Origin: an uncultured Legionellales bacterium
GTDB taxonomy: Bacteria > Pseudomonadota > Gammaproteobacteria > Eutrophobiales > Eutrophobiaceae
DNA: 64,000 nt
Assembly (NCBI GenBank): GCA_913046215.1
Contig: CAJWRJ010000001.1
Span: 72,897-136,896 of the forward strand
Reading direction: 5' to 3'
Position numbers and translations under genes: made by a program. Under the pieces are notes generated by a model. The model was not told the origin of the DNA. It searched no databases and worked only from the letters and a program-made list of their open reading frames with translations. This document shows positions 32,902 to 46,756 of this stretch, in pieces. The number at the start of each line of letters is the position of its first letter. Positions within the stretch are counted from its first letter, which is position 1.

Positions 32902-33034
32902 AAAAACAGATTCTAAAATCGAGATTCAGCCTCAATTGTCAAGGTTCATTTCAGGACAGCCAATATTTTACACTTAAAAAACTGTCCTAATTATAGGTAT
33001 AATTGACTCATATACTACGAAAGTGCCAATAATA

Positions 33035-34390
33035 ATGAAAAAAAAATATAAAAACTTTCATATTTTTGTCGGGCTGTTACTTGTGTTAAAAGTATCAATC
33101 ACCACAGCTGAAACATTACCTCAGTATGGCAAAGATATGCATCTAGGAGTACAAACTTGCTCAGGATCAACATGTCATGGTGCCGTTCAACCATGGCAGA
33201 ATTCATCTGTGCTTCAGAATGAAGCAATTACTTGGAAAAAATATGATCATCATGCTCGTGCTTTTAAGACATTAGCAAGCGAGCGTTCAAAACGTATTGC
33301 AAAAAATTTGGGAATAGAAAACCCGCAGAAAGATAATGTGTGTTTAAACTGTCATGCAAATAATGTTCCCAAAGAAAAACGTGCTAAAAATTTCATGATA
33401 AGTGATGGTGTTACCTGCGAAGCATGCCATGGAGGTGCAGAAAAATGGCTAGGCATTCATGTTTCCGGAGTGGGTGGACGTGAAGAAAATATTAAAGCTG
33501 GGCAGTACCCAACCGAGGAGCCTTTAGCTAGAGCAAAACTTTGTTTAAGTTGTCATTATGGTACTGAAAATAAATTTCTTACACATAGAATAATGGGTGC
33601 AGGCCATCCAAGGTTAGCTTTTGAACTTGACACATATACTGCGACACAACCAGCACATTACAAAGTTGATGCAGATTATAGACAAAGGAAAAGATGGAGC
33701 AATGGTGTTAGAACATGGGCAATCGGACAGGCAGTTGCTGTCGAAGAAACCTTAAATGCGTTGACAGATAAAAATAGAAATCGCCAAGGTATTTTTCCTG
33801 AACTTGTATTCTTCGATTGCCATGCTTGTCACCACCCTATGTCTAATCTTCGCTGGGAGCGAAGAGATAGTGTAGGTCTTGATCCTGGAATTCCAAAACT
33901 AAATGACGCAAACATTGTAATGTTGCGAGTAATTTCTTCTGTAGTTGATCCAGAACTTGGTAAGCGTATAGAAGAAGAGACTAAACGGTTACATCAAGCA
34001 TCAATGAAAGGCGGTGATGCAACGTTTGAAGCCGCGGATGTTTTGAGATCAACCTTAAAAGGCGTTGTTCAAAAGATTAGTAAACATACTTTTAATCAAA
34101 AAGAAATGGAAAAAATACTTAATGCGCTCTTAGAGTTTGGATTTCATGGTGAATATGTTAATTACATAGCAGCTGAACAGGCTACTTACTCAATTGGTAG
34201 CGTCATCGAGGCTATGAAAGATAGTGGAATGATAAGAGGGAAGGCGATTGAAAAAGTTAAAAAAGCAATGGACATGGCCTACGAAGCGGTTAAATCTGAT
34301 GAAAAGTATCGTCCTTCAGAATTTGTCAAAGCAATTGAAAATATAAAAAAATCCGTAAGTCCGGAATTACAGCTTTCAAAAAAACACTAG
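33035..34390 (+). CDS. secreted pentaheme c-type cytochrome (4 CXXCH + 1 CX4CH) with a non-heme alpha-helical C-terminal domain
   Basis: Signal peptide MKKKYKNFHIFVGLLLVLKVSITTAETL. Heme sites CSGSTCH, CLNCH, CEACH, CLSCH and CHACH fall in the first ~270 aa. The remaining ~180 aa are heme-free and predicted helical. Confidence 0.8.
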   Translation: MKKKYKNFHIFVGLLLVLKVSITTAETLPQYGKDMHLGVQTCSGSTCHGAVQPWQNSSVLQNEAITWKKYDHHARAFKTLASERSKRIAKNLGIENPQKDNVCLNCHANNVPKEKRAKNFMISDGVTCEACHGGAEKWLGIHVSGVGGREENIKAGQYPTEEPLARAKLCLSCHYGTENKFLTHRIMGAGHPRLAFELDTYTATQPAHYKVDADYRQRKRWSNGVRTWAIGQAVAVEETLNALTDKNRNRQGIFPELVFFDCHACHHPMSNLRWERRDSVGLDPGIPKLNDANIVMLRVISSVVDPELGKRIEEETKRLHQASMKGGDATFEAADVLRSTLKGVVQKISKHTFNQKEMEKILNALLEFGFHGEYVNYIAAEQATYSIGSVIEAMKDSGMIRGKAIEKVKKAMDMAYEAVKSDEKYRPSEFVKAIENIKKSVSPELQLSKKH

Positions 34391-34516
34391 GTGATTAGCC
34401 AAAATCTGGACAAAATTACGACCTAAATTATCATCAAGTGTTTTATAGAATAATATTATTAGATAGTGTATTTTTTCAGTATGAGATTAGAAAAATCACC
34501 GAATGTAAGTCAATAT

Positions 34517-36349
34517 ATGGTATTTCCAAAAAAGACACTTTTTTTACTCGTAGGCATTATTTTTTTCAGTGTCTCAAGTGCTAATGAACCTATTATAGAT
34601 CAAGACCTAAAATTACCCGATAATTATCAATCTCAGTGGGAGAAAGTTGCTGGTGATTCTGAACCCGTAATGCCAGGCGGGGGAGACGGATTAGATCCAC
34701 ATCTTAAAATATTACAACAATCGAAATATCCATCAGCTGCACTTTGTGGAAGATGTCACCAGCGTATTTTTACTGAGTGGGCTTCATCAAACCATGCTTA
34801 TGCATCAATTTCGCCAATGTTTCACAAGTTTGAGCAAGCGGTCAATGCATTGACGTCTGGCACGATGGGTACTTTTTGCGTGCGTTGTCATCAACAAGTC
34901 GGTACTCAAGTCGGAGAAACTCGCGAAGCACCTCTTTGGGAACGTTCACAAGTTGCTAGAGAAGGTATCACATGCATTACTTGCCATAGAGTTAATCAAG
35001 CGTTTGGAAAAGTAAATGGCGAGCGTCACATACAGCCAGGGACTATTTACGAACCAGTATATAATACTGGCGATGCGCCAGGTGTTGCAGAGGTGATATC
35101 TGAACGTGATTATTATAAAGTTGCAACGAATCCTGACGAGGAAGGCTTCCCGATACACGGCGGCGCTCAAGTTTTCGAGACAATTGGAGAGTCTGAGTTT
35201 TGTGTTTCATGCCATCAGGTCGCAGTTAATTTAGGAATTAAGTTAGAAGTTGTATGGGAACAGTACCGTGATAGTCCTGCGCATGCGAAGGGCGTGACTT
35301 GTCAAGAGTGTCATATGGGCAAGATTCCGGGAGAAGCAAAAGGCTATGATACTGGACCTGTTGCTATAGTTAATGGACGCGTTGTTGGAGATCCAAATCG
35401 TAAACATTCAAATCATGCATTTTACGGACCCGGTTATCCAATTGCTCACCCTGGTTTATTTCCATTTAATGTGCGTTCATTGAAATGGTCTGTAAAAGAG
35501 TGGCTGACATTTAATTATCGAAAGCCATGGGGTAAGCCTGATTGGGAGGATAAGCTCGAACAAGGATTGGTGGAAAAACCAGAATTTCCTGAAATATGGT
35601 CGACTAGACAGGCACGAGAAGAAGCTAGATACATAATTGGCCAGAACAATAAATTGCTCGAGAATAAAAAGCTAGATCGTTTAGCTGTAATGGAAAATGG
35701 AAGCCGTATTGATGGACCATTTTTTGATAATGGTAAACCAGAAATGGGAAAAGATTTAAAATTTCGTTATCGAATTACAAATGTTGATGAGGGACACAAT
35801 CTTCCATCTGGTTCTTTAGGCGCACAACCAGAAATCTGGCTCAATGTCGTACTCACAGATCCTGATGGCGAACGTGTATTTGAATCAGGATATGTTGACA
35901 AGTACGGAGATATGGTTGATTTACATTCGTTAGAGTTGGCCGAGGGCACAATAGAACACGATGATCAACTTTTTAATCTACAAACAAAATTTTTGACAAC
36001 CAATATTAAAGGTACTGATCGCGAGATGTATCTGCCTGTTAATTTCGATATAGATCAACTCCCATTTTTAAGACCTGCCCCACAACCAACGACTGTCATG
36101 AATCATCCACCTTTCGTGAGAATGGAGGGTCGTTCAATACCACCTTTAGCTTACCGTGATGCTAAATATAAAGTCTCCGGTGATTTAATAAAAAAATCTG
36201 GCACATATAAATTACAAGTAAGAATGCGAAGTCGTGCGGAACCAATTTATTTTATGAAATTTGTTGGTGCAACACTTGATATGGAAAAAAGAATTAATGA
36301 CTGGATGATTGATATTCATCCATACTCAGTCGATTTTGATATCAATTAA
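34517..36349 (+). CDS. secreted pentaheme c-type cytochrome with a ~300-aa non-heme C-terminal domain
   Basis: Likely start MVFPKKTLFLLVGIIFFSVSSANEP (signal peptide). Heme sites CGRCH, CVRCH, CITCH, CVSCH and CQECH. The track ORF begins at 34466. Confidence 0.8.
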   Translation: MVFPKKTLFLLVGIIFFSVSSANEPIIDQDLKLPDNYQSQWEKVAGDSEPVMPGGGDGLDPHLKILQQSKYPSAALCGRCHQRIFTEWASSNHAYASISPMFHKFEQAVNALTSGTMGTFCVRCHQQVGTQVGETREAPLWERSQVAREGITCITCHRVNQAFGKVNGERHIQPGTIYEPVYNTGDAPGVAEVISERDYYKVATNPDEEGFPIHGGAQVFETIGESEFCVSCHQVAVNLGIKLEVVWEQYRDSPAHAKGVTCQECHMGKIPGEAKGYDTGPVAIVNGRVVGDPNRKHSNHAFYGPGYPIAHPGLFPFNVRSLKWSVKEWLTFNYRKPWGKPDWEDKLEQGLVEKPEFPEIWSTRQAREEARYIIGQNNKLLENKKLDRLAVMENGSRIDGPFFDNGKPEMGKDLKFRYRITNVDEGHNLPSGSLGAQPEIWLNVVLTDPDGERVFESGYVDKYGDMVDLHSLELAEGTIEHDDQLFNLQTKFLTTNIKGTDREMYLPVNFDIDQLPFLRPAPQPTTVMNHPPFVRMEGRSIPPLAYRDAKYKVSGDLIKKSGTYKLQVRMRSRAEPIYFMKFVGATLDMEKRINDWMIDIHPYSVDFDIN

Positions 36350-36359
36350 AAAAAAGATC

Positions 36360-38825
36360 ATGCCTCTAAAACATAATAAATTAAATAAGATTTATAGTTT
36401 ATTTTTATATAGTGCACTAGTTTTATTTTCATACCAGCAGCCATTATATGCGGATGTGTTGACTTCAGTTAATGATTGGGCGAAGGCTTGGGCATCACAA
36501 AATGTTGATCAATATTTTGAAAGTTATGCTGAAGATTTTGCGCCCTCTCAAGAACATACTAAAAAAACTTGGAAATCTCAAAGAGAGAGTAGATTGTTGT
36601 CTCCAAGTTTTATCAAGGTGACATTATCTAATATAGAAATCAGCCAGCACTCTGAGGATTTTGCTGATGTGCTTTTTACACAAAACTATAAGTCAGATAG
36701 CTATTCTGATGAAGTGACAAAACAATTGAGAATGCAAAAAATTGATGACAAATGGCTGATTATAAAGGAAAAAACTATAAAAATAAGACAGAAAACAGAA
36801 CTCCAATTAGTGAAAAAAAATGAGGTTTTAGAGGACACCACAACAGTCCAAATCGAACATGATGTTAAAGAGGCCTTGAATAGTTGGTCAAAGGTTTGGT
36901 CATCTCAGGATATTGATGGTTATTTTGCAGCTTACGCTGAAGATTTTTCGCCATCCAACATATCAAACAAAAAAAAATGGAAAAAACAACGTCATAATAG
37001 AGTCATTAGTCCAAGCTATATAAAGGTAACTCTTACTGATGTGAAGATTACACAACACAGTAAAAATAATGTCGACGTAGTATTTAATCAAAATTATGAA
37101 TCTAGTAATCACAGCGATGATGTTAGAAAACTTATTTCCATGCAGAGGGAAAATGAGCGATGGTTGATCACCAAGGAGAGAGTAAAAAAAGTTTTGATTG
37201 ATATTAGTGAAGACCTATCTTCACAAGACAAAACTAATCTTATAGCAGAATTAGATTCTCACAGTGATAGTTCAATAAATTATGCAGATGTTGTTCCTGT
37301 TGAAGATGATTTGAAAGATGAAAGTATTTTACGAAGAAGAGATGTACCCGCCGATACTGTTTTAGAGAAGAGAAGTGGTAGTCCTAAACATAAAAGTCAC
37401 CAAGCGCCACCCGAAATGGATCCTCATGTTCGTCCATCTGAATTTGAGCCAGATCTTTTTGGAAGTGATCCAGTATATCCAGATAATGTTTATGATGTTG
37501 CTGAGCAAATAAAAATTTATGGTGGAAAAACTCCATTTGATGAACCACGTCCAATACTAGAATTTGGTTATCCTCTTTATTCCGAGGGTGCTTTGGGTAG
37601 AACCTATGATGTTATTGGAGAGAAAAACTTGTTAAGACCACAGCTACTTGTATACGGTGATTTTAGAAGTGCTCTTGCTTTTAACGACAATGGCAACAAG
37701 GAGATTGGTCAGATCGCTGCAAGGTTGAATCTTGATGTTGATTTAAAATTAACCGCAACAGAACGTATTCATCTTTTTCTTCGTCCTATTGATAAAAATA
37801 ATAATTTTCTTCGTCACGAGTTTTTTGGCGATGATCATAATGACTTCGATTTTGTGTTAGATGCAAATCTTGAGACTATTTATTTTGAGGGTGATATAGG
37901 GGCCATTCAATCGGGATTAACAAATGAATGGGCAACTTATGATTTGCCCTTTGCTATTGGTTTCATGCCTTTGCTTTTTCAGAATGGAATATGGCTTGAT
38001 GACGCATTTGTAGGTGCTGCATTTGCTATTCCAGCGATGAATTCTCCAAAGTACGATATATCAAATATGGATATTAGCTTTTTCACTGGTTTTGACAAAG
38101 TAACAACTGCAGCATTAAAAAATGGAGCTGGTCAAATAGAGGATAGTAAGGGAAATGTTTTTGGTGTAAATGCATTCGTGGAAACTCGACAAGGATACTT
38201 AGAAGCCGGTTATGGTTTCATTGATGATAAACGTAATGGAAATATATTAAGTGGTTTTGATCATCATAGTTTGACTGCAGCATGGACAAAGAGATATAGA
38301 GGGAAACTTTCAAACTCAATACGTGGTATCTGGACATTTGGACAAACTCCGAATGGAGGCAATACCCAGACTGCTGATGGGTTTGTCATTCTCATAGAGA
38401 ACTCACTTATAACTAGCAAGCCATCAACTTTAATTCCATATGGCAATTTTTACGTTGGTGTGGATAGACCTCAACCACTTGTACGTGGCAATGATGGGCT
38501 TCTTAAAAATACAGGAATAGTCTTTGAAACCGACGGTTTAACAGGATTTCCAAAACTTGATTCCTCTGCTCAAGATGTATTTGGTGGCGCAATTGGTATT
38601 CAATACCTCTTTGATTTATCTAGACAGGCTGTATTTGAAGTTGCAACTGTTCAGCCATTTGGCGGTCAGTCTGCGACGATTGTTGGCGATCAGTACGGAT
38701 TGAGCGCACGATATCAGCATAATTTAAATGATCGTTGGCTTATAAGGACGGACGCAATGATTGGAATTCTTAATAATGCAGAGAATATTTCTGGTATTCG
38801 TCTCGAATTGCGCCGTAAATTCTAA
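36360..38825 (+). CDS. outer-membrane beta-barrel protein with two tandem N-terminal NTF2/SnoaL-like domains (putative porin partner of the cytochromes)
   Basis: Signal peptide MPLKHNKLNKIYSLFLYSALVLFSYQQPLYA. Two ~110-aa repeats (VNDWAKAWASQNVDQYFESYAEDFAPS...WLIIKEK and LNSWSKVWSSQDIDGYFAAYAEDFSPS...WLITKER). The ~540-aa C-terminal region shows alternating amphipathic strands and a terminal ...GIRLELRRKF, the OMP C-terminal Phe signature. Confidence 0.6.
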   Translation: MPLKHNKLNKIYSLFLYSALVLFSYQQPLYADVLTSVNDWAKAWASQNVDQYFESYAEDFAPSQEHTKKTWKSQRESRLLSPSFIKVTLSNIEISQHSEDFADVLFTQNYKSDSYSDEVTKQLRMQKIDDKWLIIKEKTIKIRQKTELQLVKKNEVLEDTTTVQIEHDVKEALNSWSKVWSSQDIDGYFAAYAEDFSPSNISNKKKWKKQRHNRVISPSYIKVTLTDVKITQHSKNNVDVVFNQNYESSNHSDDVRKLISMQRENERWLITKERVKKVLIDISEDLSSQDKTNLIAELDSHSDSSINYADVVPVEDDLKDESILRRRDVPADTVLEKRSGSPKHKSHQAPPEMDPHVRPSEFEPDLFGSDPVYPDNVYDVAEQIKIYGGKTPFDEPRPILEFGYPLYSEGALGRTYDVIGEKNLLRPQLLVYGDFRSALAFNDNGNKEIGQIAARLNLDVDLKLTATERIHLFLRPIDKNNNFLRHEFFGDDHNDFDFVLDANLETIYFEGDIGAIQSGLTNEWATYDLPFAIGFMPLLFQNGIWLDDAFVGAAFAIPAMNSPKYDISNMDISFFTGFDKVTTAALKNGAGQIEDSKGNVFGVNAFVETRQGYLEAGYGFIDDKRNGNILSGFDHHSLTAAWTKRYRGKLSNSIRGIWTFGQTPNGGNTQTADGFVILIENSLITSKPSTLIPYGNFYVGVDRPQPLVRGNDGLLKNTGIVFETDGLTGFPKLDSSAQDVFGGAIGIQYLFDLSRQAVFEVATVQPFGGQSATIVGDQYGLSARYQHNLNDRWLIRTDAMIGILNNAENISGIRLELRRKF

Positions 38826-38834
38826 ATAATTATA

Positions 38835-40532
38835 TTAAATTTTTTCTTTTGGCATCATCAAGTCTTCGCGATGAAAGCCATGACATTCAGTACAGGTGCT
38901 TTTTACTTTTGTTGTCGTTGTTTCTCCACCATGGCATTCCTGACAAGTTGTAATTGACGGGAGCAGTATATCGGTAGCTTTTTCACTTTTTGTTGCATCA
39001 TGACATGTTGTACATTCTCTATCTTTGTGCGGTTTATGATTAAAGAAACTTTTTGGTAGCCACTTTGTTGGTACATGAACAGTTGCTATATCCCATCTAC
39101 CCGTTTTTTTATTTTCTACAATTTGGTGACATTCTCCACATAGTCCACGACCATATCTTCCTTGTACAATTTCTTCGGCTTTTGCTTCAGCCCATTCTAG
39201 AGCCGCCTTCTTTTTTTCTTTAGTATCAGGTTTATCGCCTATTAGTTTACGAAAAGTTGATGTTTCATCATTTAATGTATTTGACTCAATAAAATTGCCT
39301 CGAAGTGCAAACTCGGCATATGTTCCTATAATATATTCTTTTGCTAAAGAAATATTTCCATGCGGCATCTCTCTATTAGGTGCTTGAGGTTCAAATTTTA
39401 AGTCGTGGCAACTGGCGCAGTGTTTTTCAAAACTTACAGGGAGTAAAGCAACACCTCCAGTTTCAGGCTCATGGCAGAATCCACACTGAAGAACCGTTCG
39501 TGTTCCATTTGGATGTCTAACTCCATTTTCTTTTAGATGCTTATTATGTGGAAATTTCAAATTCGATCGATCTATTGGTTTTGGTTTTTTTTGATCAATC
39601 GTCACTCTCTCAAAAGTTAAAGGCTGATGAGTTTTTATGAGTGTAGGACGAAATTGAGGATGTTCGTTAAAGTTTGAGACATTTTTTAATTTAGAATTCT
39701 CAGCAACATCTAGGATTTCACTATGGCAGTTGCTACAAAATCTTTCAGTGGTGATAAGCAAGCCCTGATCGCCATTATGTTCTTTATGACAATCCTGACA
39801 CTGTTGTCCATCTAAAGAGGCGCTTGGAAATATAGACGGGTCCGCATGGTGCCCGGCATCATCATGACAATCAAAACATACTTTATTTCCTACTTGTTGA
39901 AATGCATCTGTATGGCATGTTTCGCAGCGATCGCCAAAATGTGCATGCACACTAGAATGAGGGCCTGACAACCAAATTTTATCAGCGGTTGCTAAAATTC
40001 CATTTTTTTTTGTTTCACTTACTGTTTCATTTTTTTTATATTTTATCGTATATGCGGTAAGTGGCCCCAATATTCCAAGCGTGATAATTCCAATAAATAA
40101 AACCCACGCCCATCCTCTAGTACTGAGTCCAAGCGAATCAAACTGTGTATTTGATCGTTTTTTAAATGCTTCTAATTCATCACCTAGTGGACGCGAGTAC
40201 TCAATAGTTAATACAGCATCATATCCATCTTCATTATCTAAGACCTCGATATCATATGGACCAAGATGAATTTTATCTCCCGTTTTTACGGTTGATTTAG
40301 TAAGGATTTGATCATTAACCTGAAAATCACTATCTCCTTGACCCTCTAAGTATAGTTCTCCCGAACGCTCTGTTATTTCAAGTTGAATTAATAGAATTCT
40401 TGGATCAGTTAAGTGAACCTCGCATTCTGAACCACGTCCAAAGCGAATTGCAGGAGATTCTATATCTTCGTCACGCTGAGCATATCCCCCAGAACGAGTT
40501 TTTTTAAGAAGATGTCTAATAAGTACTTTCAT
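38835..40532 (-). CDS. FHA-domain / single-TM / periplasmic decaheme c-type cytochrome fusion
   Basis: 565 aa. N-terminal FHA-like fold (IRFGRGSECEVHLTDPRILLIQLEITERSGELYLEGQGDSDFQVNDQIL...GDKIHLGPYDIEV), TM helix (WAWVLFIGIITLGILGPLTAY), then ten CXXCH sites: CETCH, CFDCH, CQDCH, CSNCH, CGFCH, CASCH, CGECH, CTTCH, CQECH, CTECH. Confidence 0.75.
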   Translation of the reverse strand: MKVLIRHLLKKTRSGGYAQRDEDIESPAIRFGRGSECEVHLTDPRILLIQLEITERSGELYLEGQGDSDFQVNDQILTKSTVKTGDKIHLGPYDIEVLDNEDGYDAVLTIEYSRPLGDELEAFKKRSNTQFDSLGLSTRGWAWVLFIGIITLGILGPLTAYTIKYKKNETVSETKKNGILATADKIWLSGPHSSVHAHFGDRCETCHTDAFQQVGNKVCFDCHDDAGHHADPSIFPSASLDGQQCQDCHKEHNGDQGLLITTERFCSNCHSEILDVAENSKLKNVSNFNEHPQFRPTLIKTHQPLTFERVTIDQKKPKPIDRSNLKFPHNKHLKENGVRHPNGTRTVLQCGFCHEPETGGVALLPVSFEKHCASCHDLKFEPQAPNREMPHGNISLAKEYIIGTYAEFALRGNFIESNTLNDETSTFRKLIGDKPDTKEKKKAALEWAEAKAEEIVQGRYGRGLCGECHQIVENKKTGRWDIATVHVPTKWLPKSFFNHKPHKDRECTTCHDATKSEKATDILLPSITTCQECHGGETTTTKVKSTCTECHGFHREDLMMPKEKI

Positions 40533-40535
40533 TTC

Positions 40536-41378
40536 TTACCAATAAAAAAATACAGCTAGTATGTGAGAGAAAAGTGCAGCCAATAAACCTATCGATAGTG
40601 GAATATGAAAAAATAACCACACTCTTAGAATTACTTTTATTTGAATATCGCGTCTCGCTCGTCTGAGTAATTTTGTTTTTTTTGCAAGTAAAGCGATTAC
40701 CTTTGATATGTTTTGATCGCGAAGACCCATATCAGCAAATTTTTCTTCAATTAAATTCCTAGCATTTAGGGTTGGACAGTCAATATTTTTTGGTGATAAT
40801 TTTTCTATTATATTTCCACCTATACTAGTCTCAGTGGCTGCTTTAAGTAGAGCCGTATTTATTTCTTCAGGCAGTTGCTGACCAGCTTTAAGAATATCTT
40901 GATCTAGTTCTGAAATTTGCCCCATCATTTCATCTAGAGACAGTCCAGCTCGATTTTTTGTCATTAGCTTTGGATAATATGCATAAATAAATACCCCAAC
41001 AACACCACTTAACACAGTTAACAGCATAAGGATGTAAGCAATGGAATGGATATTCCATCCAATCTGAAAACCACTATGTAGAGTTGCGGTAACTACAAGA
41101 GCGAGTCCAAGATAAATATGAGCAGACAACCAAACCTTTAATCCTGTTGCACTAACAGCATATTGCCTTTTTCTAACTCCAAACCAAGTTAACCACAAAA
41201 CTAAAACAGCTGAAATTATCCCCAATGTGTATCCAAGCCATGATCCGCCATTTGGTTCACCCAGGGGGTTATGCCATATATAAAGAACGATTGAGATAAA
41301 AGCCAATGCGACGGCATACCAAAGAAACTTGAGACCTTTATAGATAAAAAAAGAATCATGGACATTACGTGAACTCAT
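40536..41378 (-). CDS. polytopic inner-membrane protein with conserved intramembrane His (putative b-heme / quinol-interacting subunit)
   Basis: Start MSSRNVHD, placed by a TGATATG stop/start junction with the upstream gene; 280 aa. Five TM helices with His in helices 3-5 (LSAHIYLGL, WNIHSIAY, FFHIPLSIGLLAALFSHIL). A ~100-aa soluble loop lies between TM4 and TM5. The track ORF is extended to 41579. Confidence 0.55.
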   Translation of the reverse strand: MSSRNVHDSFFIYKGLKFLWYAVALAFISIVLYIWHNPLGEPNGGSWLGYTLGIISAVLVLWLTWFGVRKRQYAVSATGLKVWLSAHIYLGLALVVTATLHSGFQIGWNIHSIAYILMLLTVLSGVVGVFIYAYYPKLMTKNRAGLSLDEMMGQISELDQDILKAGQQLPEEINTALLKAATETSIGGNIIEKLSPKNIDCPTLNARNLIEEKFADMGLRDQNISKVIALLAKKTKLLRRARRDIQIKVILRVWLFFHIPLSIGLLAALFSHILAVFFYW

Positions 41379-41379
41379 A

Positions 41380-43788
41380 TCACTCGCTCCCGTCTCTAAT
41401 AAAGTCCATGAATTCGTCTGGTTTGACACGTATCGCCGCCCCAGTTGGGCAAGCACGCACACAAGCAGCACCACCTTTAATATCCTTACACATATCGCAC
41501 TTAACTGCTGTTTTGCGAGCATCCTCCGGTGCTCTTTCTCGGTAACCATAGTCTTCGCCTGGTCCAGGACCTTTTCCAAAAAGAAGCCAAGAAAACAAAT
41601 TTGGTTTTTCTGGTGGTTCAGGCGCCATTTGAATTACCCCATATGGGCAATTTTTTTGGCAGTTACCACAACCAATACAGTCATTTGTAATGTAAACTTC
41701 ACCGTCAGGGTTTCTTTTAATAGCATCGGGAGGACAGTCCGTCATACAGTGCGGATGTTCGCAATGTCGGCAACTTGTTGGAACATGCACGTTTGCAAAT
41801 GTTGGTCCTGCCTCACGATTTAATCTCGAAATACCCCTGTGTGTCTCGGCACAGGCTTTTTCACAATTATCACATCCAACACATAACGATTCGTTTATTA
41901 AAAGCACATCAGTTGCTTCACCTATACCTTCTCCCATTAAAAATTCTACAATACTTCCAGCCTCAGGTTGCTCTATCATTTTTTCTGTTGAAACAATACG
42001 TTCACCATATTTCTCTTCGATTTCTTTTTGAAGAGAAGGATTTTCATCAACTAATTTGCGGAAGATTTCACCATCTATCTTAATTGTTTCACAATCAACC
42101 GCGGCTTTAATTGTTGCTGTTCGATTTAAATCTGACATTAATGCCATTTCCCCAACATAATTACCTGCAGCGACGTAAGCAAGGGTTACCTCCTTACCAC
42201 CTATTCGTTTCGATACCATCACTGAGCCTTTACTTATGAGATAAAGCGCATCACCCTCATCACCCTCATTAAATATAACTTTACCTTTACGAAAGGTTTC
42301 TATTGAAGCTGAGTCTGCCAATTTTTGTATTGCATTAATGTCGAGGGCGCTTGCGATATAAGTTTGAATTTGCCTTACGATAGCCTCTTTATCCATAGAA
42401 TTTCGTAAAGAACGGACATCCTCTCTTAATTTAAGCATCGTACGACGAGGCGTTTCAATTAATATCGTATCATCTGCATTAGATAAAATTGTTGCCGAAC
42501 GTCTACGACCCGATATTAATCCCACTTCTCCAAAAAATGCACCTTGCTCCAAGACAACAAACTTAGATGGATCATCCTCGCTAGTTTGTATTTTGACTGA
42601 GCCCCTGAATATTGTGTAGACACTATTCGTATAATCTCCCCGTTCAAAAATTACTGTTCCATTAGGCGGCGCAGTTACGGTTGATTCAACTAACATTTCT
42701 CTTTCCATTAATGGGTTTAGTTCTTCAAATATAGGAAGTCTTGCCCTCACTTCTTTTAAAAAAGAATCATTATCAAAATCCTTTATATCTTTTAAAGTTT
42801 TAGTAATTATTGGTTCATCAGCTGGATCTAATTCCGTGTTACCGTTGATATATTCAATGACTTCATAACCCTGATTTATTGCATGTTTAATTAACGGATA
42901 TCCACCTAAGGAGCCAACTATATATAGGCCTTTAACATTTGATTCGTAGGTTTTGCTTACTTCTGGCAACGCGCTGCGTGCATCAGATGGAAAAGTAACT
43001 CCACAGGCTTCAACAAACTTTCGTGGCGGTGCTGCACCAAGTCTAGCAATCACTCTGTCACACTCTATTGTTACATCGCCATCAGGCGTATCAAAAGTTA
43101 ATGTTCCTTCCGAACATTCCTTTGAACTACTATTGTATAGGGGAGTAATACGTCCTCTATCAATTTCAGCTAAAATAGCCGCTTCATTTGCTTCTTTTGC
43201 ACGTGAAAATTCATTACCACGATTAGCTATATAAACTGTGTTATGCGTACACAAACCAAGTGCATTTTCTATTGCAGCATCACCCGCACCGATAACAATG
43301 ATAGTTTCATGCTCATATTCATCTGGGTCATCTAATTGATATTGAATATGCGTGACATCATCTATTCCAGGTATTCGTAAAGTATTCAGATTACCTTGAA
43401 GACCTATTGCAAGAACGATTGATTCTACTTTAATAATATCTTTATTTTTTAGTGTAAGCTCAAACTTTCCTTTTGTTCCTGAAACAGATTTAACTTCAGA
43501 ATTGTATAGAATATTAACTTGGTGATTTTTTAATGCTAGATTCCATCTATCGAGAACATCTTCTCTGCTTCCCATTTTAAAATCGATATCTGAACGCAAG
43601 GGAAGCACGTCCGGAGTTGCCATAACATGCTTACCTTTTTGAAACTTGTAAATTGTGTCCGATACATGATCTGCTTTTTCAATTAATACATGTCGTAAAC
43701 CTAATACAGATGCATGCGCTGCTGCACTAAGACCAGCTGGTCCAGAACCTATTATTGCAACTTGAAAAATTGATTCTTTACTCGCCAT
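41380..43788 (-). CDS. FAD-dependent pyridine-nucleotide oxidoreductase fused to two cyclic-nucleotide-binding domains and a poly-[4Fe-4S] ferredoxin domain
   Basis: 802 aa. Rossmann fold VAIIGSGPAGLSAAAHA plus a second dinucleotide site IIVIGAGDAAIENA. Two cNMP-binding segments (FFGEVGLISGRRRSATI; YVGEMALMSDLNRTATIKA). C-terminal Cys clusters CVGCDNCEKAC, CRHCEHPHCMTDCP, CIGCGNCQKNCP and CDMCKDIKGGAACVRACP. Confidence 0.8.
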   Translation of the reverse strand: MASKESIFQVAIIGSGPAGLSAAAHASVLGLRHVLIEKADHVSDTIYKFQKGKHVMATPDVLPLRSDIDFKMGSREDVLDRWNLALKNHQVNILYNSEVKSVSGTKGKFELTLKNKDIIKVESIVLAIGLQGNLNTLRIPGIDDVTHIQYQLDDPDEYEHETIIVIGAGDAAIENALGLCTHNTVYIANRGNEFSRAKEANEAAILAEIDRGRITPLYNSSSKECSEGTLTFDTPDGDVTIECDRVIARLGAAPPRKFVEACGVTFPSDARSALPEVSKTYESNVKGLYIVGSLGGYPLIKHAINQGYEVIEYINGNTELDPADEPIITKTLKDIKDFDNDSFLKEVRARLPIFEELNPLMEREMLVESTVTAPPNGTVIFERGDYTNSVYTIFRGSVKIQTSEDDPSKFVVLEQGAFFGEVGLISGRRRSATILSNADDTILIETPRRTMLKLREDVRSLRNSMDKEAIVRQIQTYIASALDINAIQKLADSASIETFRKGKVIFNEGDEGDALYLISKGSVMVSKRIGGKEVTLAYVAAGNYVGEMALMSDLNRTATIKAAVDCETIKIDGEIFRKLVDENPSLQKEIEEKYGERIVSTEKMIEQPEAGSIVEFLMGEGIGEATDVLLINESLCVGCDNCEKACAETHRGISRLNREAGPTFANVHVPTSCRHCEHPHCMTDCPPDAIKRNPDGEVYITNDCIGCGNCQKNCPYGVIQMAPEPPEKPNLFSWLLFGKGPGPGEDYGYRERAPEDARKTAVKCDMCKDIKGGAACVRACPTGAAIRVKPDEFMDFIRDGSE

Positions 43789-44197: not shown

Positions 44198-44926
44198 TTA
44201 CTGTCGCCTTTTAAGCCACATCCAAATACCGGTAGCGGAAATAACAAGCATTAGAATTGCAACCAGATCCATAAAGTAGGTACCCCATTTTCCTACAACA
44301 CGGCCGCTATGCATATCAAGCAATACTCTTTCAATTGTCAGACCTTTGCCGCGGTACTCGTTAAAAATAGCAATTCTTAGTTTCTCGGATATATTATTTG
44401 ATGTGTCCGACCAATTTGCAGAAAGCAGATCATGTTCATTCCAGTTCAAAATATCCAAATTGACGCGATAATAACCATGTGCCGATTTAATTATTACATT
44501 ATCCTTATCATCAACACCAATTGCTTTCATCCCTGCGGGAACACCCTCGGCACCTGATAAAGATTCTAAAAGTTTACCGTCTTCAGTAAGCACCATTAAT
44601 TTTCCATCATAACCAACGACAAATGTGTTATTTATATAAACAACACCAATTAGGTTTTCTACATTAGTAATAATTTCTATGTCATTGAAATAAACACGTT
44701 GACCAAGTTGTGTTATCCAGTTGTTATTGTAGGAAGGGTATGCGATAGGTTCGGAGTTTGGGCTAATTTGATAAAGATCAAGCAACCATTCCATCTTTAT
44801 AAATGTTGTATTTAACTTGAACTTTTCACTGTGGTTTAATGCGATACCGCTAATAGCAAGAAAAATAACAAATATTACGATGAATATTCCTATCTTTTTG
44901 TGCCACCTTTGTATAAAAAGAAACAT
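44198..44926 (-). CDS. PepSY-associated TM-helix family membrane protein (two TM helices flanking a periplasmic domain)
   Basis: 242 aa. N-terminal QRWHKKIGIFIVIFVIFLAISGIALNH and C-terminal LDMHSGRVVGKWGTYFMDLVAILMLVISATGIWMW are typical PepSY_TM helix signatures with conserved His. Confidence 0.6.
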   Translation of the reverse strand: MFLFIQRWHKKIGIFIVIFVIFLAISGIALNHSEKFKLNTTFIKMEWLLDLYQISPNSEPIAYPSYNNNWITQLGQRVYFNDIEIITNVENLIGVVYINNTFVVGYDGKLMVLTEDGKLLESLSGAEGVPAGMKAIGVDDKDNVIIKSAHGYYRVNLDILNWNEHDLLSANWSDTSNNISEKLRIAIFNEYRGKGLTIERVLLDMHSGRVVGKWGTYFMDLVAILMLVISATGIWMWLKRRQ

Positions 44927-44956
44927 ACACCTATTCTAGGATGCAATTATTTATTT

Positions 44957-45484
44957 TCAATTTTTATTATCGATATATTGATCTAGAAATAGAGCTAGAC
45001 GTGCTAATTTTATCAAAGCATCAACTGACAATGTTGCTCCACTAATACCATCAATTTTTCTATCTAATTTTGTATCAGCCTTAAGAGAGGCATCTGCAAA
45101 TTGTTCTGTAAAAAAAGGATATCTTACTTCCCATCCTCTTGATTCTCTAAAAACTAGTACTTTCACATCTAGAATCTTTCCTTTTGAAGTAACATATCCA
45201 GTCGTAATTGGCTTGTCTCTGCCAATTCTCTCTAAAATCCAGGCTTTTTTAGACCCATCATCCCAATATCGAAGTCGTAATGGCTTGAATTCATCTCCCA
45301 GTATTTTTTTTATTTCTTTCTTTAGCTCTTTTTTAAGCCATAGTTTTTTTGGATTTGGAGGGTTATTGTTAAACACGTCCGATAAAAATTTTTCAGGTTC
45401 TAAGTAAGTTCCCTTTGCATAAGAGTGTAAACTCCAACTCTGAGTTAGTAGAAATAAAAAGATATATAAAGTCAGTTTTGTCAT
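44957..45484 (-). CDS. secreted FMN-binding domain protein (predicted ApbE flavinylation target)
   Basis: 175 aa with a signal peptide. The C-terminal KIDGISGATLSVDAL matches the D-x-[ST]-G-A-T-x-[ST] motif of NqrC/RnfG-type FMN_bind domains, whose Thr (here T151) is covalently flavinylated. Confidence 0.65.
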   Translation of the reverse strand: MTKLTLYIFLFLLTQSWSLHSYAKGTYLEPEKFLSDVFNNNPPNPKKLWLKKELKKEIKKILGDEFKPLRLRYWDDGSKKAWILERIGRDKPITTGYVTSKGKILDVKVLVFRESRGWEVRYPFFTEQFADASLKADTKLDRKIDGISGATLSVDALIKLARLALFLDQYIDNKN

Positions 45485-45589
45485 ATTTAGTTATAAGCCT
45501 ACAAAAAAAATAGGGCACTTACAAAAGTGCCCTAAATATATCACCACGAGGATATTACCGTTGGTACGATAATTCTTAAAATTTATTAT

Positions 45590-46756
45590 TTAGAACGAAT
45601 ACCCTACACCAAGATAGAAGTTATCTGTGGTTGTATTATCATCAACATCTTTAACCGATTCAAAGGTACCTTTGAAAACTACCTTTGGATGTGGCCAGAT
45701 ATTAAAACCTGTTGAGGTACGTTCTTCTTCGTTTCTAGAGCCTGTAAAACCTCTGTCTATGTCTTCGTATCTGATGTAGACACCTACGTCGGTATTACTA
45801 TTACCCACAGTCCAACGATAGGCTGGCTCAACATACCAACCTTCTGAGTCTTTACCATCAGCTGATAAGTTCTTATTCATATCCCATCCCGCATAAAGAG
45901 CGCGGAAACCTAAACCCGAGCTATGTTTATAATCGACATGAGTTGTAAATAAGTGAGCATCATTTCCTGATACTAGTTCACCACCGATGTTACTTTGGAA
46001 TTGGTATGAAGCAGATAATTCAAGACCTGGAACACCGGTATAACGGAGTCGACCAGTTGCTGCCGGATATTCTGCGTTTGCTTCTGCTACCTTTTGTCTA
46101 CCAGATCGTATGTTGCTACTCGTTTCTAACCCTGAGTGAAGTACGATGTCATAGTTAACACCTGGTGCAACTTCCCCATTGAAACCAAAACCTGCTTCCC
46201 ACCAAGTTGAAGGAATGATTCTTTTTTCTACTTCATTTCGCTCAACTCCATAGAATGTATTAGGTTCATGTGTAACATTCAACATACCAACAGGTAGAAT
46301 ATCAAGACCGGCACGGAAATGATGATTTTCACTAAGGTCAATTTCAATCCATGCTTGTTCTAATTCAACCTCACCTTCTTTACCCTCTCCAGCTAATGAA
46401 TGCTCTAATTCCCATTCTGAGAAGAAGTGGATGTTATCGGTGTAGTCATGACCTATGTATAGGACATAACGGTGGAAGTCGACTTGATCTGTTCCATCAC
46501 CAAATTTGTAATGAAGTTCACCATAGCCGCCCATCTGAGTTTTATCAGCCCAATTACCAGTTGCACCACCAGCACCAGATTCTACAGCTTCTGCGGTAGC
46601 ATCAAGTTGCTCCTGGAGCTCTTCAATAACTTTTTGCTGTTCTTGTATAGTTTGCCACATTTCTTCTGCTGTCGGTGCTGCTTTAGCGGCAGAGACAGTA
46701 AAAAACATGAATAGAATCATGTAGATAACTCTATTAATGTGATTATTCGTATTCAT
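45590..46756 (-). CDS. outer-membrane beta-barrel porin-like protein
   Basis: 388 aa. Signal peptide (an alternative start is MILFMFFTVSAAKA at 46720), an N-terminal coiled-coil (WQTIQEQQKVIEELQEQLDA), alternating amphipathic strands, and a C-terminal ...NFYLGVGYSF. Confidence 0.6.
   Translation of the reverse strand: MNTNNHINRVIYMILFMFFTVSAAKAAPTAEEMWQTIQEQQKVIEELQEQLDATAEAVESGAGGATGNWADKTQMGGYGELHYKFGDGTDQVDFHRYVLYIGHDYTDNIHFFSEWELEHSLAGEGKEGEVELEQAWIEIDLSENHHFRAGLDILPVGMLNVTHEPNTFYGVERNEVEKRIIPSTWWEAGFGFNGEVAPGVNYDIVLHSGLETSSNIRSGRQKVAEANAEYPAATGRLRYTGVPGLELSASYQFQSNIGGELVSGNDAHLFTTHVDYKHSSGLGFRALYAGWDMNKNLSADGKDSEGWYVEPAYRWTVGNSNTDVGVYIRYEDIDRGFTGSRNEEERTSTGFNIWPHPKVVFKGTFESVKDVDDNTTTDNFYLGVGYSF

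What the first reader, a model, noticed from the sequence alone, without database searches (positions are those of the whole stretch)
40536..41378. His-rich five-helix membrane protein between oxidoreductase and decaheme: putative b-heme transmembrane relay
The gene is translationally coupled (TGATATG) to the oxidoreductase and is 3 nt from the decaheme gene. Histidines sit inside TM helices 3, 4 and 5, two of them in helix 5. This is reminiscent of di-heme b membrane electron carriers such as cytochrome b561, PepSY_TM/FoxB-like or CbcL b-domains, but with a distinct topology and a ~100-aa soluble insert. It would be the step that moves electrons across the inner membrane.
Basis: inference. 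Interest (0 to 1): 0.55.

Follow-up and report, generated by a model that had tools for sequence, protein, structure and literature searches.

The report
Likely two-haem membrane electron relay protein
This small five-helix membrane protein very probably holds two b-type haems. It would pass electrons across the inner membrane, from a cytoplasmic NAD(P)H/iron-sulfur enzyme to a periplasmic ten-haem cytochrome, in a widespread but biochemically untested bacterial module.

Summary
Window 40536-41378 (minus strand) encodes a 280-aa, five-helix inner-membrane protein. It is joined TGAtATG to an 802-aa FAD/NAD(P) + 2x cNMP + 4x[4Fe-4S] protein and lies 3 nt upstream of an FHA-anchored decahaem cytochrome c.

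In 100 divergent relatives only seven columns are invariant, and four are His87/His101 (TM3) and His258/His272 (TM5), each pair 14 apart. His111 (TM4) is replaceable, so it is not a ligand. Covariation places TM2-5 in a four-helix bundle with TM3 and TM5 diagonal and in register. TM3 and TM5 are sequence repeats. The only recurrent Pfam signal is the di-haem cytochrome b clan, not transporters.

The three-gene core is conserved in about 80 of 83 loci and in at least 591 species genomes, and one genome fuses the Fe-S protein to this protein.

It works like the NOX/ferric-reductase haem domain, with ligands on TM3 and TM5. It fails membership tests for PF01292 and PF01794, and Foldseek finds no solved relative.

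The cluster is already named ptd (PtdF, "ferric reductase-like"), with function unknown. Haem binding, electron direction and quinone involvement remain untested.

The parts
40536..41378 (-). Gene for the 280-aa five-TM protein (PtdF-like), the putative di-haem b relay.
   Evidence: ORF and junctions. 738 homologues of the same length. 3448 50%-identity clusters at E<=1e-3. AlphaFold2 pLDDT 83.9.
41073..41150 (-). TM3 (aa 77-102, running in to out), motif W-L-x-x-H87-[IV]-x-L-x9-H101. H87 codon is 41118-41120 and H101 codon is 41076-41078. These are proposed axial ligands of the cytoplasm-side and periplasm-side haems.
   Evidence: H87 and H101 are 100% conserved in 249 sequences and invariant in 100 divergent representatives. 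TM3 aligns to TM5 without gaps at hhalign E=4.2e-5.
40539..40634 (-). TM5 (aa 249-280, running in to out), motif W-L-x-x-H258-[IV]-P-L-x9-H272. H258 codon is 40605-40607 and H272 codon is 40563-40565. These are the partner ligands. The C-terminus ends at the periplasmic face.
   Evidence: Invariant in all sequences with an intact C-terminus. Covariation pairs A98/T99 with L269, an offset of about +170-171, which places H87 about level with H258 and H101 with H272. Pfam PF01292 profile positions 132-165 match this helix in relatives.
41175..41240 (-). TM2 (aa 47-68, running out to in) with G53 and G67, 14 residues apart. A flanking helix of the four-helix bundle.
   Evidence: G53 100% and G67 97% conserved. 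Covariation ladders to TM3 and TM5.
40974..41051 (-). TM4 (aa 110-135, running out to in) with H111 (codon 41046-41048), G125 and G128. A flanking helix. H111 sits at the periplasmic mouth.
   Evidence: H111 is 98% conserved but genuinely replaced by S, P or Q in three otherwise intact relatives. G125 is invariant. Ladders to TM3 and TM5.
41271..41339 (-). TM1 (aa 14-36, running in to out), a peripheral helix. It is followed by the conserved periplasmic loop P38-N43-G44-G45-x-W47.
   Evidence: Hydropathy and AlphaFold2. Loop conservation.
40635..40973 (-). Cytoplasmic helical insert (aa 136-248) between TM4 and TM5. A candidate docking platform for the Fe-S domain and/or the FHA domain.
   Evidence: 19 K/R residues and a predicted helical fold. 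Conserved N142, R143, G145, D159, T184, G187, G188, C201, T203, R242. No Pfam or PDB match.
41380..43788 (-). Upstream partner (PtdE-like), 802 aa and cytoplasmic. It has a TrxR/YpdA-like FAD/NAD(P) domain (about 42868-43767), two cNMP-binding domains with intact G-E...R-[ST]-A cassettes, and a four-cluster ferredoxin domain (about 41419-41901).
   Evidence: Pfam and NCBIfam. 16 Cys in four motifs, no TM helix and no signal peptide. PDB relatives: HycB 6e-20 for the Fe-S domain, and YpdA/Bdr 2e-25 plus TrxR-type FNR for the flavin domain. cNMP cassettes. Found upstream in 79/83 loci. Fused to the TM protein in P0169.
38835..40532 (-). Downstream partner (PtdG-like), 565 aa. It has a cytoplasmic FHA domain (about 40242-40463), one TM helix (about 40044-40118) and a periplasmic decahaem c domain (about 38880-39926).
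   Evidence: Pfam FHA and cytochrome c3/c7. 10 CxxCH motifs. TM helix. Found downstream in 81/83 loci.
33023..38825 (+). Divergently placed outer-membrane module. It comprises a 455-aa cytochrome (4 CxxCH plus one CX4CH), a 627-aa pentahaem cytochrome and an 838-aa putative porin with two NTF2-like domains (PtdD/PtdA/PtdB-like). It is an optional accessory to the core.
   Evidence: Present within 6 kb in only 13, 6 and 9 of the 83 loci. The ptd description is in bioRxiv 10.1101/2023.11.21.568154.

Best explanation
The 280-aa protein is a di-haem b-type cytochrome. TM2-TM5 form a four-helix bundle. TM3 and TM5 lie diagonally and each gives two axial His: H87+H258 hold a haem near the cytoplasmic face, and H101+H272 hold a haem near the periplasmic face.

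The protein is the membrane-crossing link of a three-subunit chain: NAD(P)H -> FAD -> four [4Fe-4S] clusters (802-aa cytoplasmic subunit) -> haem b (inner) -> haem b (outer) -> ten c-haems of the FHA-anchored cytochrome in the periplasm. In this window the chain would continue to a periplasmic and outer-membrane cytochrome/porin set.

Shown here: gene order and coupling, topology, invariance and spacing of the four His, the bundle arrangement from covariation, weak but consistent homology to the di-haem cytochrome b clan, and a natural fusion to the Fe-S subunit.

Inferred: that haem is bound, that electrons flow outward, that no quinone is involved, and that the cNMP and FHA domains gate the flow.
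For: - His conservation. In 100 representatives at 30-45% identity only G53, R71, H87, H101, G125, H258 and H272 are invariant. The enrichment for His has P = 4.8e-6.
- Spacing and depth. Both His pairs are spaced 14 residues apart on helices that run in the same direction (in to out), so they sit at matching depths.
- Covariation. Mean-field DCA (Meff 171) gives self-consistent ladders for TM2-3, TM3-4, TM4-5 and TM2-5. It also gives a TM3-TM5 contact, A98/T99 with L269, that puts H87 about level with H258 and H101 with H272.
- Internal repeat. TM3 and TM5 are repeats (hhalign E = 4.2e-5; controls 0.07-0.1). The TM2-3 hairpin resembles TM4-5 (E = 8.9e-4).
- Pfam. PF01292 is hit by 74/77 close and 43/100 divergent members (best E = 3.8e-8; two of eight members scanned individually reach the 30.1-bit gathering score). 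DUF4405 and Ferric_reduct are the next most frequent recurring families among the divergent members, where nothing else recurs in more than 3.
- Partners. The Fe-S domain is a four-cluster HycB/NrfC/FdnH-type wire. The flavin domain is YpdA/TrxR-FNR-like. The decahaem must be periplasmic.
- Synteny. The oxidoreductase is upstream in 79/83 loci and the FHA-cytochrome downstream in 81/83. At least 591 GTDB species genomes carry the family.
- Fusion. P0169 (GCA_039908105.1) joins the oxidoreductase, a linker of about 17 aa and this protein in one ORF. This fits a cytoplasmic N-terminus and direct Fe-S to haem contact.
- Known precedent. The His arrangement equals that of NOX2 (His101/115 on TM3, His209/222 on TM5; inner haem 101+209, outer haem 115+222; PMC3591440).
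Against: - No experimental data on haem content exist for any member.
- The window protein itself scores only 15.3 bits against PF01292, whose cut-off is 30.1.
- Profile or HMM comparisons with E. coli CybB, YodB, YceJ, FdnI, HyaC and MsrQ are not significant.
- Foldseek of the full model and of TM1-4 against the PDB gives nothing below E = 0.3. A PDB profile search gives nothing.
- I could not read model coordinates, so His-His distances are unverified.
- The covariation analysis rests on only about 170 effective sequences.
- One preprint found no redox motif in the Ferrigenium homologue and suggested a scaffold role.
- A few loci (for example L067) lack the adjacent oxidoreductase.
Confidence: 0.66

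Rival explanations
1. It is a haem-b protein, but a quinone-reactive one like its weak PF01292 relatives FdnI, HyaC and CybB, or like CbcL. It would couple the quinone pool to the decahaem (quinol dehydrogenase) or to the Fe-S protein (NAD(P)H:quinone reductase), rather than acting as a pure relay.
For: - The strongest family signal is PF01292. To my knowledge, most of its characterised members bind quinone.
- The conserved periplasmic motif H101-S-G-F-Q-x-G-W-N-x-H111, with its nearly invariant H111, N109 and Q105, could form a Q site next to the outer haem.
- The TM plus decahaem pair occurs without the oxidoreductase in L067 and L075.
Against: - The oxidoreductase is adjacent in 79/83 loci and is fused in one genome. 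It already supplies a complete donor side.
- H111 is replaceable.
- The ligand distribution (2+2) and the orientation differ from FdnI and CybB.
- Nothing here tests quinone binding.
Confidence: 0.17
2. It is a cofactor-free scaffold or anchor that only holds the Fe-S protein and the single-helix decahaem together, or acts as a sensor. The Ferrigenium straubiae preprint suggested this.
For: - InterPro, Pfam and NCBIfam give no above-threshold redox domain for the window protein.
- No solved structural relative was found.
- The large conserved cytoplasmic insert looks like a docking module.
Against: - A scaffold does not explain why four of only seven invariant residues are intramembrane His, in two H-x13-H pairs at matched depth on repeat helices.
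- Without membrane cofactors, the cytoplasmic Fe-S clusters and the periplasmic haems would be too far apart across the bilayer for electron transfer (general electron-tunnelling limits; my own knowledge).
Confidence: 0.1
3. It is a metal-ion or small-solute transporter that uses the membrane His as a binding or conduction site.
For: - Intramembrane His can coordinate transition metals.
- There are isolated weak hits to Polysacc_synt (E = 0.0011, 18.9 bits against a 28.2 cut-off) and to a silicon transporter (13 bits against a 1047 cut-off).
Against: - These hits are below threshold and are seen in 1 of 100 members.
- No transporter family recurs.
- The obligate neighbours are both redox proteins.
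- A five-helix bundle with Gly-rich flanking helices fits haem packing, not a pore.
Confidence: 0.03

Closest known systems
Ferric-reductase-domain superfamily (NOX, FRE, bacterial FRD, YedZ/MsrQ, STEAP; Pfam PF01794)
   Same: - The N-terminus is inside.
- Two His on TM3 and two on TM5, about 13 residues apart. The first His of each helix holds the inner haem and the second holds the outer haem (PMC3591440).
- The donor is a cytoplasmic NAD(P)H/FAD module, and electrons leave on the outer face.
- There is an extra conserved His near the outer surface (NOX2 His119 against H111 here), by analogy only.
   Different: - Five helices rather than six, so the C-terminus is outside.
- A 113-aa insert lies between TM4 and TM5.
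- The dehydrogenase is a separate subunit that interposes four [4Fe-4S] clusters and two cNMP domains.
- The acceptor is a decahaem cytochrome c, not O2 or Fe(III).
- PF01794 is matched by only 14/77 members, at E>=0.008.
Prokaryotic cytochrome b561 / Ni_hydr_CYTB family (PF01292: FdnI, HyaC, CybB)
   Same: - It gives the best and most recurrent profile signal.
- The last helix carries H-x13-H, as in FdnI TM4. A local alignment pairs FdnI H155/H169 with H258/H272 (not significant).
- The partner is a four-cluster FdnH/HycB-type ferredoxin.
   Different: - To my knowledge of the Fdn-N and CybB structures, those proteins have four helices with both ends inside, ligands spread over TM1, TM2 and TM4, and a quinone site.
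- Here there are five helices, 2+2 ligands, the opposite orientation of the H-x13-H helix, and the Fe-S partner on the cytoplasmic side.
Tmc and Hmc complexes of sulfate reducers, and CbcL of Geobacter
   Same: The overall logic is the same (my own knowledge): a periplasmic multihaem cytochrome c, a membrane cytochrome b, and (in Tmc/Hmc) a cytoplasmic Fe-S protein form a transmembrane electron conduit. The decahaem gives a weak TmcA hit (8e-5) and the Fe-S domain a weak HmcB hit (5e-9), both far below cut-off.
   Different: - To my knowledge, their cytochrome b subunits are NarI/HdrE-type or FdnI-type.
- Their cytoplasmic partner is HdrD-like and has no NAD(P)H flavoprotein.
- Electrons are thought to flow inward, or to and from quinol.
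- They have no FHA or cNMP domains.
ptdABCDEFG cluster (PtdE, PtdF, PtdG) of marine Alphaproteobacteria, and the 'NHC' locus of Ferrigenium straubiae
   Same: The gene content and order match: a cNMP/4Fe-4S protein, then a five-TM protein, then an FHA-anchored deca- or nonahaem cytochrome, with a porin and penta/tetrahaem cytochromes nearby. This window is almost certainly a ptd locus.
   Different: - Those reports only name the parts. PtdF is called 'ferric reductase-like' without analysis, and the Ferrigenium paper sees no redox motif.
- No PtdC-like flavohaemoprotein lies next to the cluster here.
- I could not compare sequences with the named PtdF, because none is in the held supplements.

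Membership tests
Pfam PF01292 Ni_hydr_CYTB (prokaryotic cytochrome b561; FdnI/HyaC/CybB) | Profile match at or above the curated gathering score (30.1 bits) | tested here: inconclusive
   The window protein scores 15.3 bits, E = 0.018. 74/77 close relatives match at E<=1 and 43/100 divergent relatives match at E<=0.01. P0047 (30.1 bits) and P0094 (31.1 bits) just reach the cut-off. TM1-4 map to profile positions 16-125 and TM5 to 132-165.
Pfam PF01292 Ni_hydr_CYTB | Four TM helices with both termini cytoplasmic; haem ligands on TM1, TM2 and two on TM4 (Fdn-N and CybB structures; my own knowledge) | tested here: not met
   There are five TM helices, with the N-terminus inside and the C-terminus outside. 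TM1 and TM2 carry no conserved His. The ligand candidates are two on TM3 and two on TM5.
Ferric reductase domain superfamily (PF01794) | Four canonical His, two on TM3 and two on TM5, about 13 apart, pairing first-with-first and second-with-second (PMC3591440) | tested here: met
   H87/H101 lie on TM3 and H258/H272 on TM5, both pairs 14 positions apart and invariant. Covariation supports the in-register arrangement.
Ferric reductase domain superfamily (PF01794) | Six TM helices and a significant profile match | tested here: not met
   There are five helices. PF01794 is matched by 14/77 members at best E = 0.0083 and by 3/100 at best E = 0.0014, all far below significance for membership. E. coli MsrQ is not significantly similar.
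Cytochrome b of bc1/b6f (PF00033/PF13631) | Four-helix bundle with H-x13-H on helices B and D and Gly pairs on helices A and C (my own knowledge); profile match | tested here: not met
   The same 14-residue pattern is present (G53-G67, H87-H101, H111-G125, H258-H272). No Pfam hit to these families appeared. To my knowledge, the helix orientation is inverted relative to cytochrome b.
ptd cluster (PtdF) | Position between the cNMP/4Fe-4S protein and the decahaem cytochrome, near a porin and penta/tetrahaem cytochromes | tested here: met
   Gene order in the window, matched against the published description. The same order is seen in 79-81 of 83 loci.
ptd cluster (PtdF) | Sequence similarity to the PtdF named in the paper | not testable with these tools
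   No PtdF sequence or accession is found in the text or the held supplements.
Any di-haem b cytochrome | Binds two b haems through bis-His ligation | not testable with these tools
   This needs spectroscopy or a structure.
   Polysacc_synt scores 18.9 bits against a 28.2 cut-off, in the window protein only. The silicon transporter scores 13 bits against a 1047 cut-off. MFS_1, FliP and similar families each appear in 1 of 100 members.

The most novel reading that the evidence does not exclude
The three-gene core is a quinone-independent, nucleotide-gated 'bacterial NOX-like' electron exporter. NAD(P)H would be oxidised by a flavin / four-cluster subunit whose activity is set by cAMP or cGMP (two intact cNMP cassettes), and perhaps by phospho-signalling through the FHA domain. 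Electrons would then cross the membrane on two b haems of an unmodelled five-helix family and load a periplasmic decahaem wire. That wire would serve different lineage-specific acceptors: porin-cytochromes here, HbpS-like proteins elsewhere. This would make it a general, regulated way for largely aerobic Proteobacteria to deliver cytoplasmic reducing power to the periplasm or the cell surface.
Probability: 0.35. Interest if true: 0.75.

Novelty: new variant of a known kind. Interest (0 to 1): 0.55.

Why it matters
Electron transfer across the inner membrane is the least understood step in most newly found multihaem and porin-cytochrome systems. This module is widespread: at least 591 species genomes and 3448 50%-identity clusters, spanning marine oxygen-deficient-zone Alphaproteobacteria, soil Lysobacterales and iron-oxidising Gallionellaceae. 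It is transcribed in situ. The two papers that noticed it disagree on whether its membrane subunit is redox-active at all.

Showing that four invariant His form a NOX-type di-haem site gives a concrete, mutable hypothesis. It points to a route from NAD(P)H to the periplasm that bypasses quinones and may be gated by cyclic nucleotides. It also changes the proposed role in iron oxidisers: electron export is more plausible than quinone reduction by Fe(II).

Culturable hosts are available for testing: Oceanibacterium hippocampi, Zavarzinia sp. CC-PAN008 and Desertibaculum subflavum.

Tried and rejected
- Foldseek of the full AlphaFold2 model against the PDB. The best hit has E = 0.33 (BAR domains, sensor four-helix bundles), and no cytochrome appears.
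- Foldseek of a second model limited to TM1-4. The best hit has E = 1.2; NarI appears at rank 10 with E = 3.1, which is meaningless.
- Profile search of PDB sequences. Only coiled-coil noise came back.
- hhalign and hmmsearch of the family profile against E. coli CybB, YodB, YceJ, FdnI, HyaC and MsrQ, singly or as small alignments. All were non-significant. The FdnI TM4/TM5 His-to-His alignment is suggestive only.
- Reading model coordinates to measure His-His distances. Models are not exposed to the scripting sandbox.
- The 1.84-billion-protein profile search lists only the best 150 hits, all from the close family. The distant halo (about 1900 clusters between 1e-10 and 1e-3) could not be inspected.
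- The promoter/terminator scan around the operon gave no more sites than shuffled sequence.
- The held supplements of the ptd preprint contain no PtdF entry.
- H111 was rejected as an axial ligand, because it is substituted in three intact relatives.
- The 347-aa TTG-start ORF was rejected, because it overlaps the upstream gene and no homologue supports it.
- The PepSY_TM / FMN_bind / OMP genes at 44198-46756 were rejected as part of the module: they are absent from all 83 related loci.
Full report
**1. What is there**

On the minus strand, ATG 41378 to TAA 40536-40538 encodes a 280-aa protein.
- The upstream junction is GGGAGCGAG-TGA-T-ATG, so the stop of the 802-aa gene is one base from this start and a GGAG lies 8 nt upstream.
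- The downstream junction is TAA-GAA-ATG, so the next gene starts 3 nt later.
- The ORF listing entry reaching 41579 (TTG start, 347 aa) overlaps the upstream gene by 200 nt. It is not supported, because every homologue starts at or just after the ATG.
- The window has 35% G+C and carries recA, alaS, lysC, guaA and guaB.
- The identical protein occurs on 97 public contigs from marine samples. One cluster member (at least 90% identical) is labelled 'MAG: Legionellales bacterium' (MBK68732.1).

**2. Anatomy**

Hydropathy and two AlphaFold2 models agree on five TM helices. The full-length model has pLDDT 83.9 and pTM 0.75, and the model of residues 1-140 has pLDDT 83.0.
- The helices span about 14-36, 47-68, 77-102, 110-135 and 249-280.
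- A helical insert of about 113 residues lies between TM4 and TM5.
- Loops 34-46 and 102-110 have no K/R. Loop 67-81 has four and the insert has 19. This gives the N-terminus inside and the C-terminus outside, with the insert in the cytoplasm.
- TM3 and TM5 therefore both run from cytoplasm to periplasm.

**3.

The family is large. It gave 738 hits in the 5.8-billion-protein set, all about 273-310 aa and all 'hypothetical'. It gave 3448 50%-identity clusters at E<=1e-3 in the exhaustive search.
- In 249 near-full-length sequences (30-100% identity), H87 and H101 are 100% conserved, and H111, H258 and H272 are 98% conserved. H7 is 69% and H36 is 59%.
- Every exception at 258 or 272 has a frameshifted or truncated C-terminus.
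- The three exceptions at 111 (S, P, Q) sit in otherwise intact motifs.
- In 100 cluster representatives at 30-45% identity to the query, only seven columns are invariant: G53, R71, H87, H101, G125, H258 and H272.
- Four His among seven invariant columns, with seven His in 280 residues, has hypergeometric P = 4.8e-6.
- So the four candidate ligands are two on TM3 and two on TM5.

**4. Geometry without coordinates**

- A 14-residue spacing recurs on four helices: G53-G67 (TM2), H87-H101 (TM3), H111-G125 (TM4) and H258-H272 (TM5).
- TM3 and TM5 share the motif W-L-x-x-H-[IV]-x-L-x9-H. Their profiles align without gaps at E = 4.2e-5, pairing H87 with H258 and H101 with H272.
- The TM2-3 hairpin aligns to TM4-5 at E = 8.9e-4. 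Control helix pairs give 0.07-0.1.
- Mean-field DCA on 245 sequences (Meff 171) gives coherent contact ladders:
  - TM2-TM3: F66-L84, S56-T97.
  - TM3-TM4: V95-V122, V95-L119, L92-V126, A98-M118.
  - TM4-TM5: L120-L261, A114-L265, I113-A267, I110-S271.
  - TM2-TM5: T64-S262, T64-I263, V60-L265.
  - Diagonal TM3-TM5: A98-L269 and T99-L269, an offset of about +170-171.
- The result is a TM2-3-4-5 four-helix bundle. The two His-bearing helices lie diagonal and in register, with H87 about level with H258 and H101 with H272. Gly-rich helices flank them.
- To my knowledge of cytochrome b of bc1/b6f, and as documented for the ferric-reductase domain, this is how a di-haem bundle is built. NOX2 has His101/115 on TM3 and His209/222 on TM5, with the inner haem on 101+209 and the outer haem on 115+222 (PMC3591440).
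- The DCA rests on few effective sequences. It should be read as supportive, not conclusive.

**5.

It does not.
- The window protein has no Pfam or NCBIfam hit above cut-off. PF01292 scores 15.3 bits at E = 0.018, Polysacc_synt scores 18.9 bits against a 28.2 cut-off, and a silicon-transporter model scores 13 bits against 1047.
- Scanned member by member, PF01292 (prokaryotic cytochrome b561 / FdnI / HyaC) is hit by 74 of 77 close relatives, with best E = 2.4e-7. DUF4405 is hit by 20 and Ferric_reduct by 14.
- Among the 100 divergent representatives at E<=0.01, the counts are 43, 10 and 3. No other family exceeds 3.
- To my knowledge, these three families form one Pfam clan of di-haem cytochromes.
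- TM1-4 map to PF01292 profile positions 16-125 and TM5 to positions 132-165, so the insert falls between them. Two members just reach the gathering score.

**6. Limits of that homology**

- Comparisons of the family profile with E. coli CybB, YodB, YceJ, FdnI, HyaC and MsrQ were not significant.
- One local alignment pairs FdnI H155/H169 with H258/H272.
- A PDB profile search found nothing.
- Foldseek of both models found nothing better than E = 0.3.
- The family is therefore a distant, unmodelled branch. It fails the PF01292 architecture (four helices, ligands on TM1/TM2/TM4, both ends inside) and the FRD architecture (six helices). It does share the FRD ligand arrangement and orientation.

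**7. Partners and context**

The upstream 802-aa protein has no TM helix and no signal peptide.
- Its flavin domain is closest to YpdA/Bdr (7a7b, 2e-25) and to TrxR-type ferredoxin-NADP reductases.
- It has two cNMP-binding domains with intact G-E...R-[ST]-A cassettes.
- It has 16 Cys in four ferredoxin motifs. The closest solved relatives of this Fe-S domain are four-cluster wires such as HycB (7z0s_B, 6e-20), HDCR HycB3/4, NrfC and FdnH.

The downstream 565-aa protein has an FHA domain, one TM helix and ten CxxCH motifs.

Across 83 related loci, the oxidoreductase lies immediately upstream in 79 and the FHA-cytochrome immediately downstream in 81. Most of the exceptions are contig ends; L067 and L075 have ample upstream flank yet no adjacent oxidoreductase.
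- The outer-membrane set seen in this window is far less common. The 455-aa cytochrome is nearby in 13 loci, the 627-aa cytochrome in 6 and the 838-aa porin-like protein in 9.
- Other lineages instead carry large HbpS-like proteins downstream.
- In L067 (Burkholderiales) the TM protein plus FHA-cytochrome pair sits next to a ccmH-like (CycH) gene, with no oxidoreductase.
- In GCA_039908105.1 the oxidoreductase (residues 1-777) is fused through a linker of about 17 residues to this protein (795-1110), and the FHA-cytochrome follows. This fits a cytoplasmic N-terminus and direct Fe-S to haem hand-over.

**8. Mechanism proposed**

The proposed chain is NAD(P)H -> FAD -> 4x[4Fe-4S] -> haem b inner (H87/H258) -> haem b outer (H101/H272) -> decahaem c. 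From there electrons would pass to lineage-specific periplasmic or outer-membrane acceptors.
- Outward flow is inferred. It runs downhill in potential and is aided by the membrane potential.
- The reverse would be Fe(II) or periplasmic donors reducing NAD(P)+. That would have to work against both potential and membrane potential.
- The highly conserved periplasmic loops (P38-N43-G44-G45-W47 and H101-S-G-F-Q-x-G-W-N-x-H111) are candidates for docking the first c-haem domain. Alternatively they could form a quinone site, which is the main rival reading.
- The cNMP cassettes and the FHA domain suggest regulated flow. This is pure inference.

**9. What is already known**

- A 2023-24 preprint on marine oxygen-deficient-zone Alphaproteobacteria named this cluster ptdABCDEFG. 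[quoted passage not shown] The authors state that its function 'remains completely unknown'.
- A 2026 preprint on Ferrigenium straubiae describes the same trio. It found no redox motif in the five-TM protein and suggested a scaffold role.
- The Gallionellaceae pangenome lists a ten-haem 'forkhead-associated protein' cluster in 27 genomes, without comment.
- No paper in the library analyses the His pattern or tests haem binding.

**10. Verdict**

The protein is best described as a new, unmodelled variant within the di-haem b membrane cytochromes. It works like the NOX/FRD haem domain but is not a demonstrable member of PF01794 or PF01292. I put the probability that it is a di-haem transmembrane relay at about two in three. 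Direction and quinone independence are less certain.

Noticed in passing
window 44198-46756 (minus strand): Just upstream of the oxidoreductase, on the same strand, lie three genes: a 242-aa PepSY_TM-like protein with two TM helices, a 175-aa secreted FMN_bind protein (weak RnfG-like hit) and a 388-aa secreted protein. This may be a second, flavin-based periplasmic redox set. None of the three occurs in the 83 related loci, so it is not part of the conserved module.
   Followed up: partly
window 36309-38825 (plus strand): The 838-aa putative porin carries two N-terminal Cds6_C/NTF2-like domains (about aa 50-155 and 186-259), and Pfam finds nothing for the C-terminal 500 aa. The listed TTG start overlaps the end of the pentahaem gene by 41 nt. 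The real start is probably the internal Met of 'MPLKHNKLNKIYSLFLYSALVLF', which reads like a signal peptide.
   Followed up: no
window 33023-34390 (plus strand): The 455-aa cytochrome has four CxxCH motifs plus one CX4CH motif (CSGSTCH at aa 46). It may therefore bind five haems, one through an unusual motif.
   Followed up: no
window 40242-40463 (minus strand; FHA domain of the decahaem protein): The FHA domain keeps the G-R pair (FGRGSE). Where my recollection of canonical FHA domains expects S-x-x-H, it reads T-D-P-R-I-L-L. It may be a degenerate, phosphothreonine-independent interaction module. Conserved T184 and T203 in the cytoplasmic insert of the five-TM protein are possible targets if it is not.
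   Followed up: no
window 42040-42711 (minus strand; cNMP domains of the 802-aa protein): Both cyclic-nucleotide-binding domains retain the phosphate-binding cassette (GEVGLISGRRRSA and GEMALMSDLNRTA). This suggests real cAMP or cGMP binding placed between the flavin and the Fe-S wire.
   Followed up: partly
L089 4001-7333 (GCA_039908105.1, JAMOBI010000025.1): A single 1110-aa ORF fuses the oxidoreductase to the five-TM protein through a linker of about 17 aa. A 529-aa FHA-like multihaem gene follows. This is one genome only, so an assembly or annotation artefact is not excluded.
   Followed up: yes
L001 13051-16826 and L067 8653-12400: In Desertibaculum subflavum and a Burkholderiales MAG, the FHA-cytochrome gene is followed by a protein of about 630-640 aa with HbpS-like (haem-binding/degrading) domains and an unannotated protein of about 620-670 aa, instead of a porin-cytochrome set. 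L067 also lacks the oxidoreductase and abuts a ccmH-like (CycH) gene.
   Followed up: partly
window 40536-41378, residues 1-13: The cytoplasmic N-terminal motif M-H-E-S is conserved (H7 69%, S9 at least 90% in close relatives). Its neighbouring residues (F10, F11, Y13) co-vary with the cytoplasmic ends of TM3 and TM4 and with R240 of the insert (F10-I88, F10-A133, F11-R240, Y13-K81). It may cap the inner haem pocket or contact the Fe-S domain. The motif is absent in the fused P0169.
   Followed up: no
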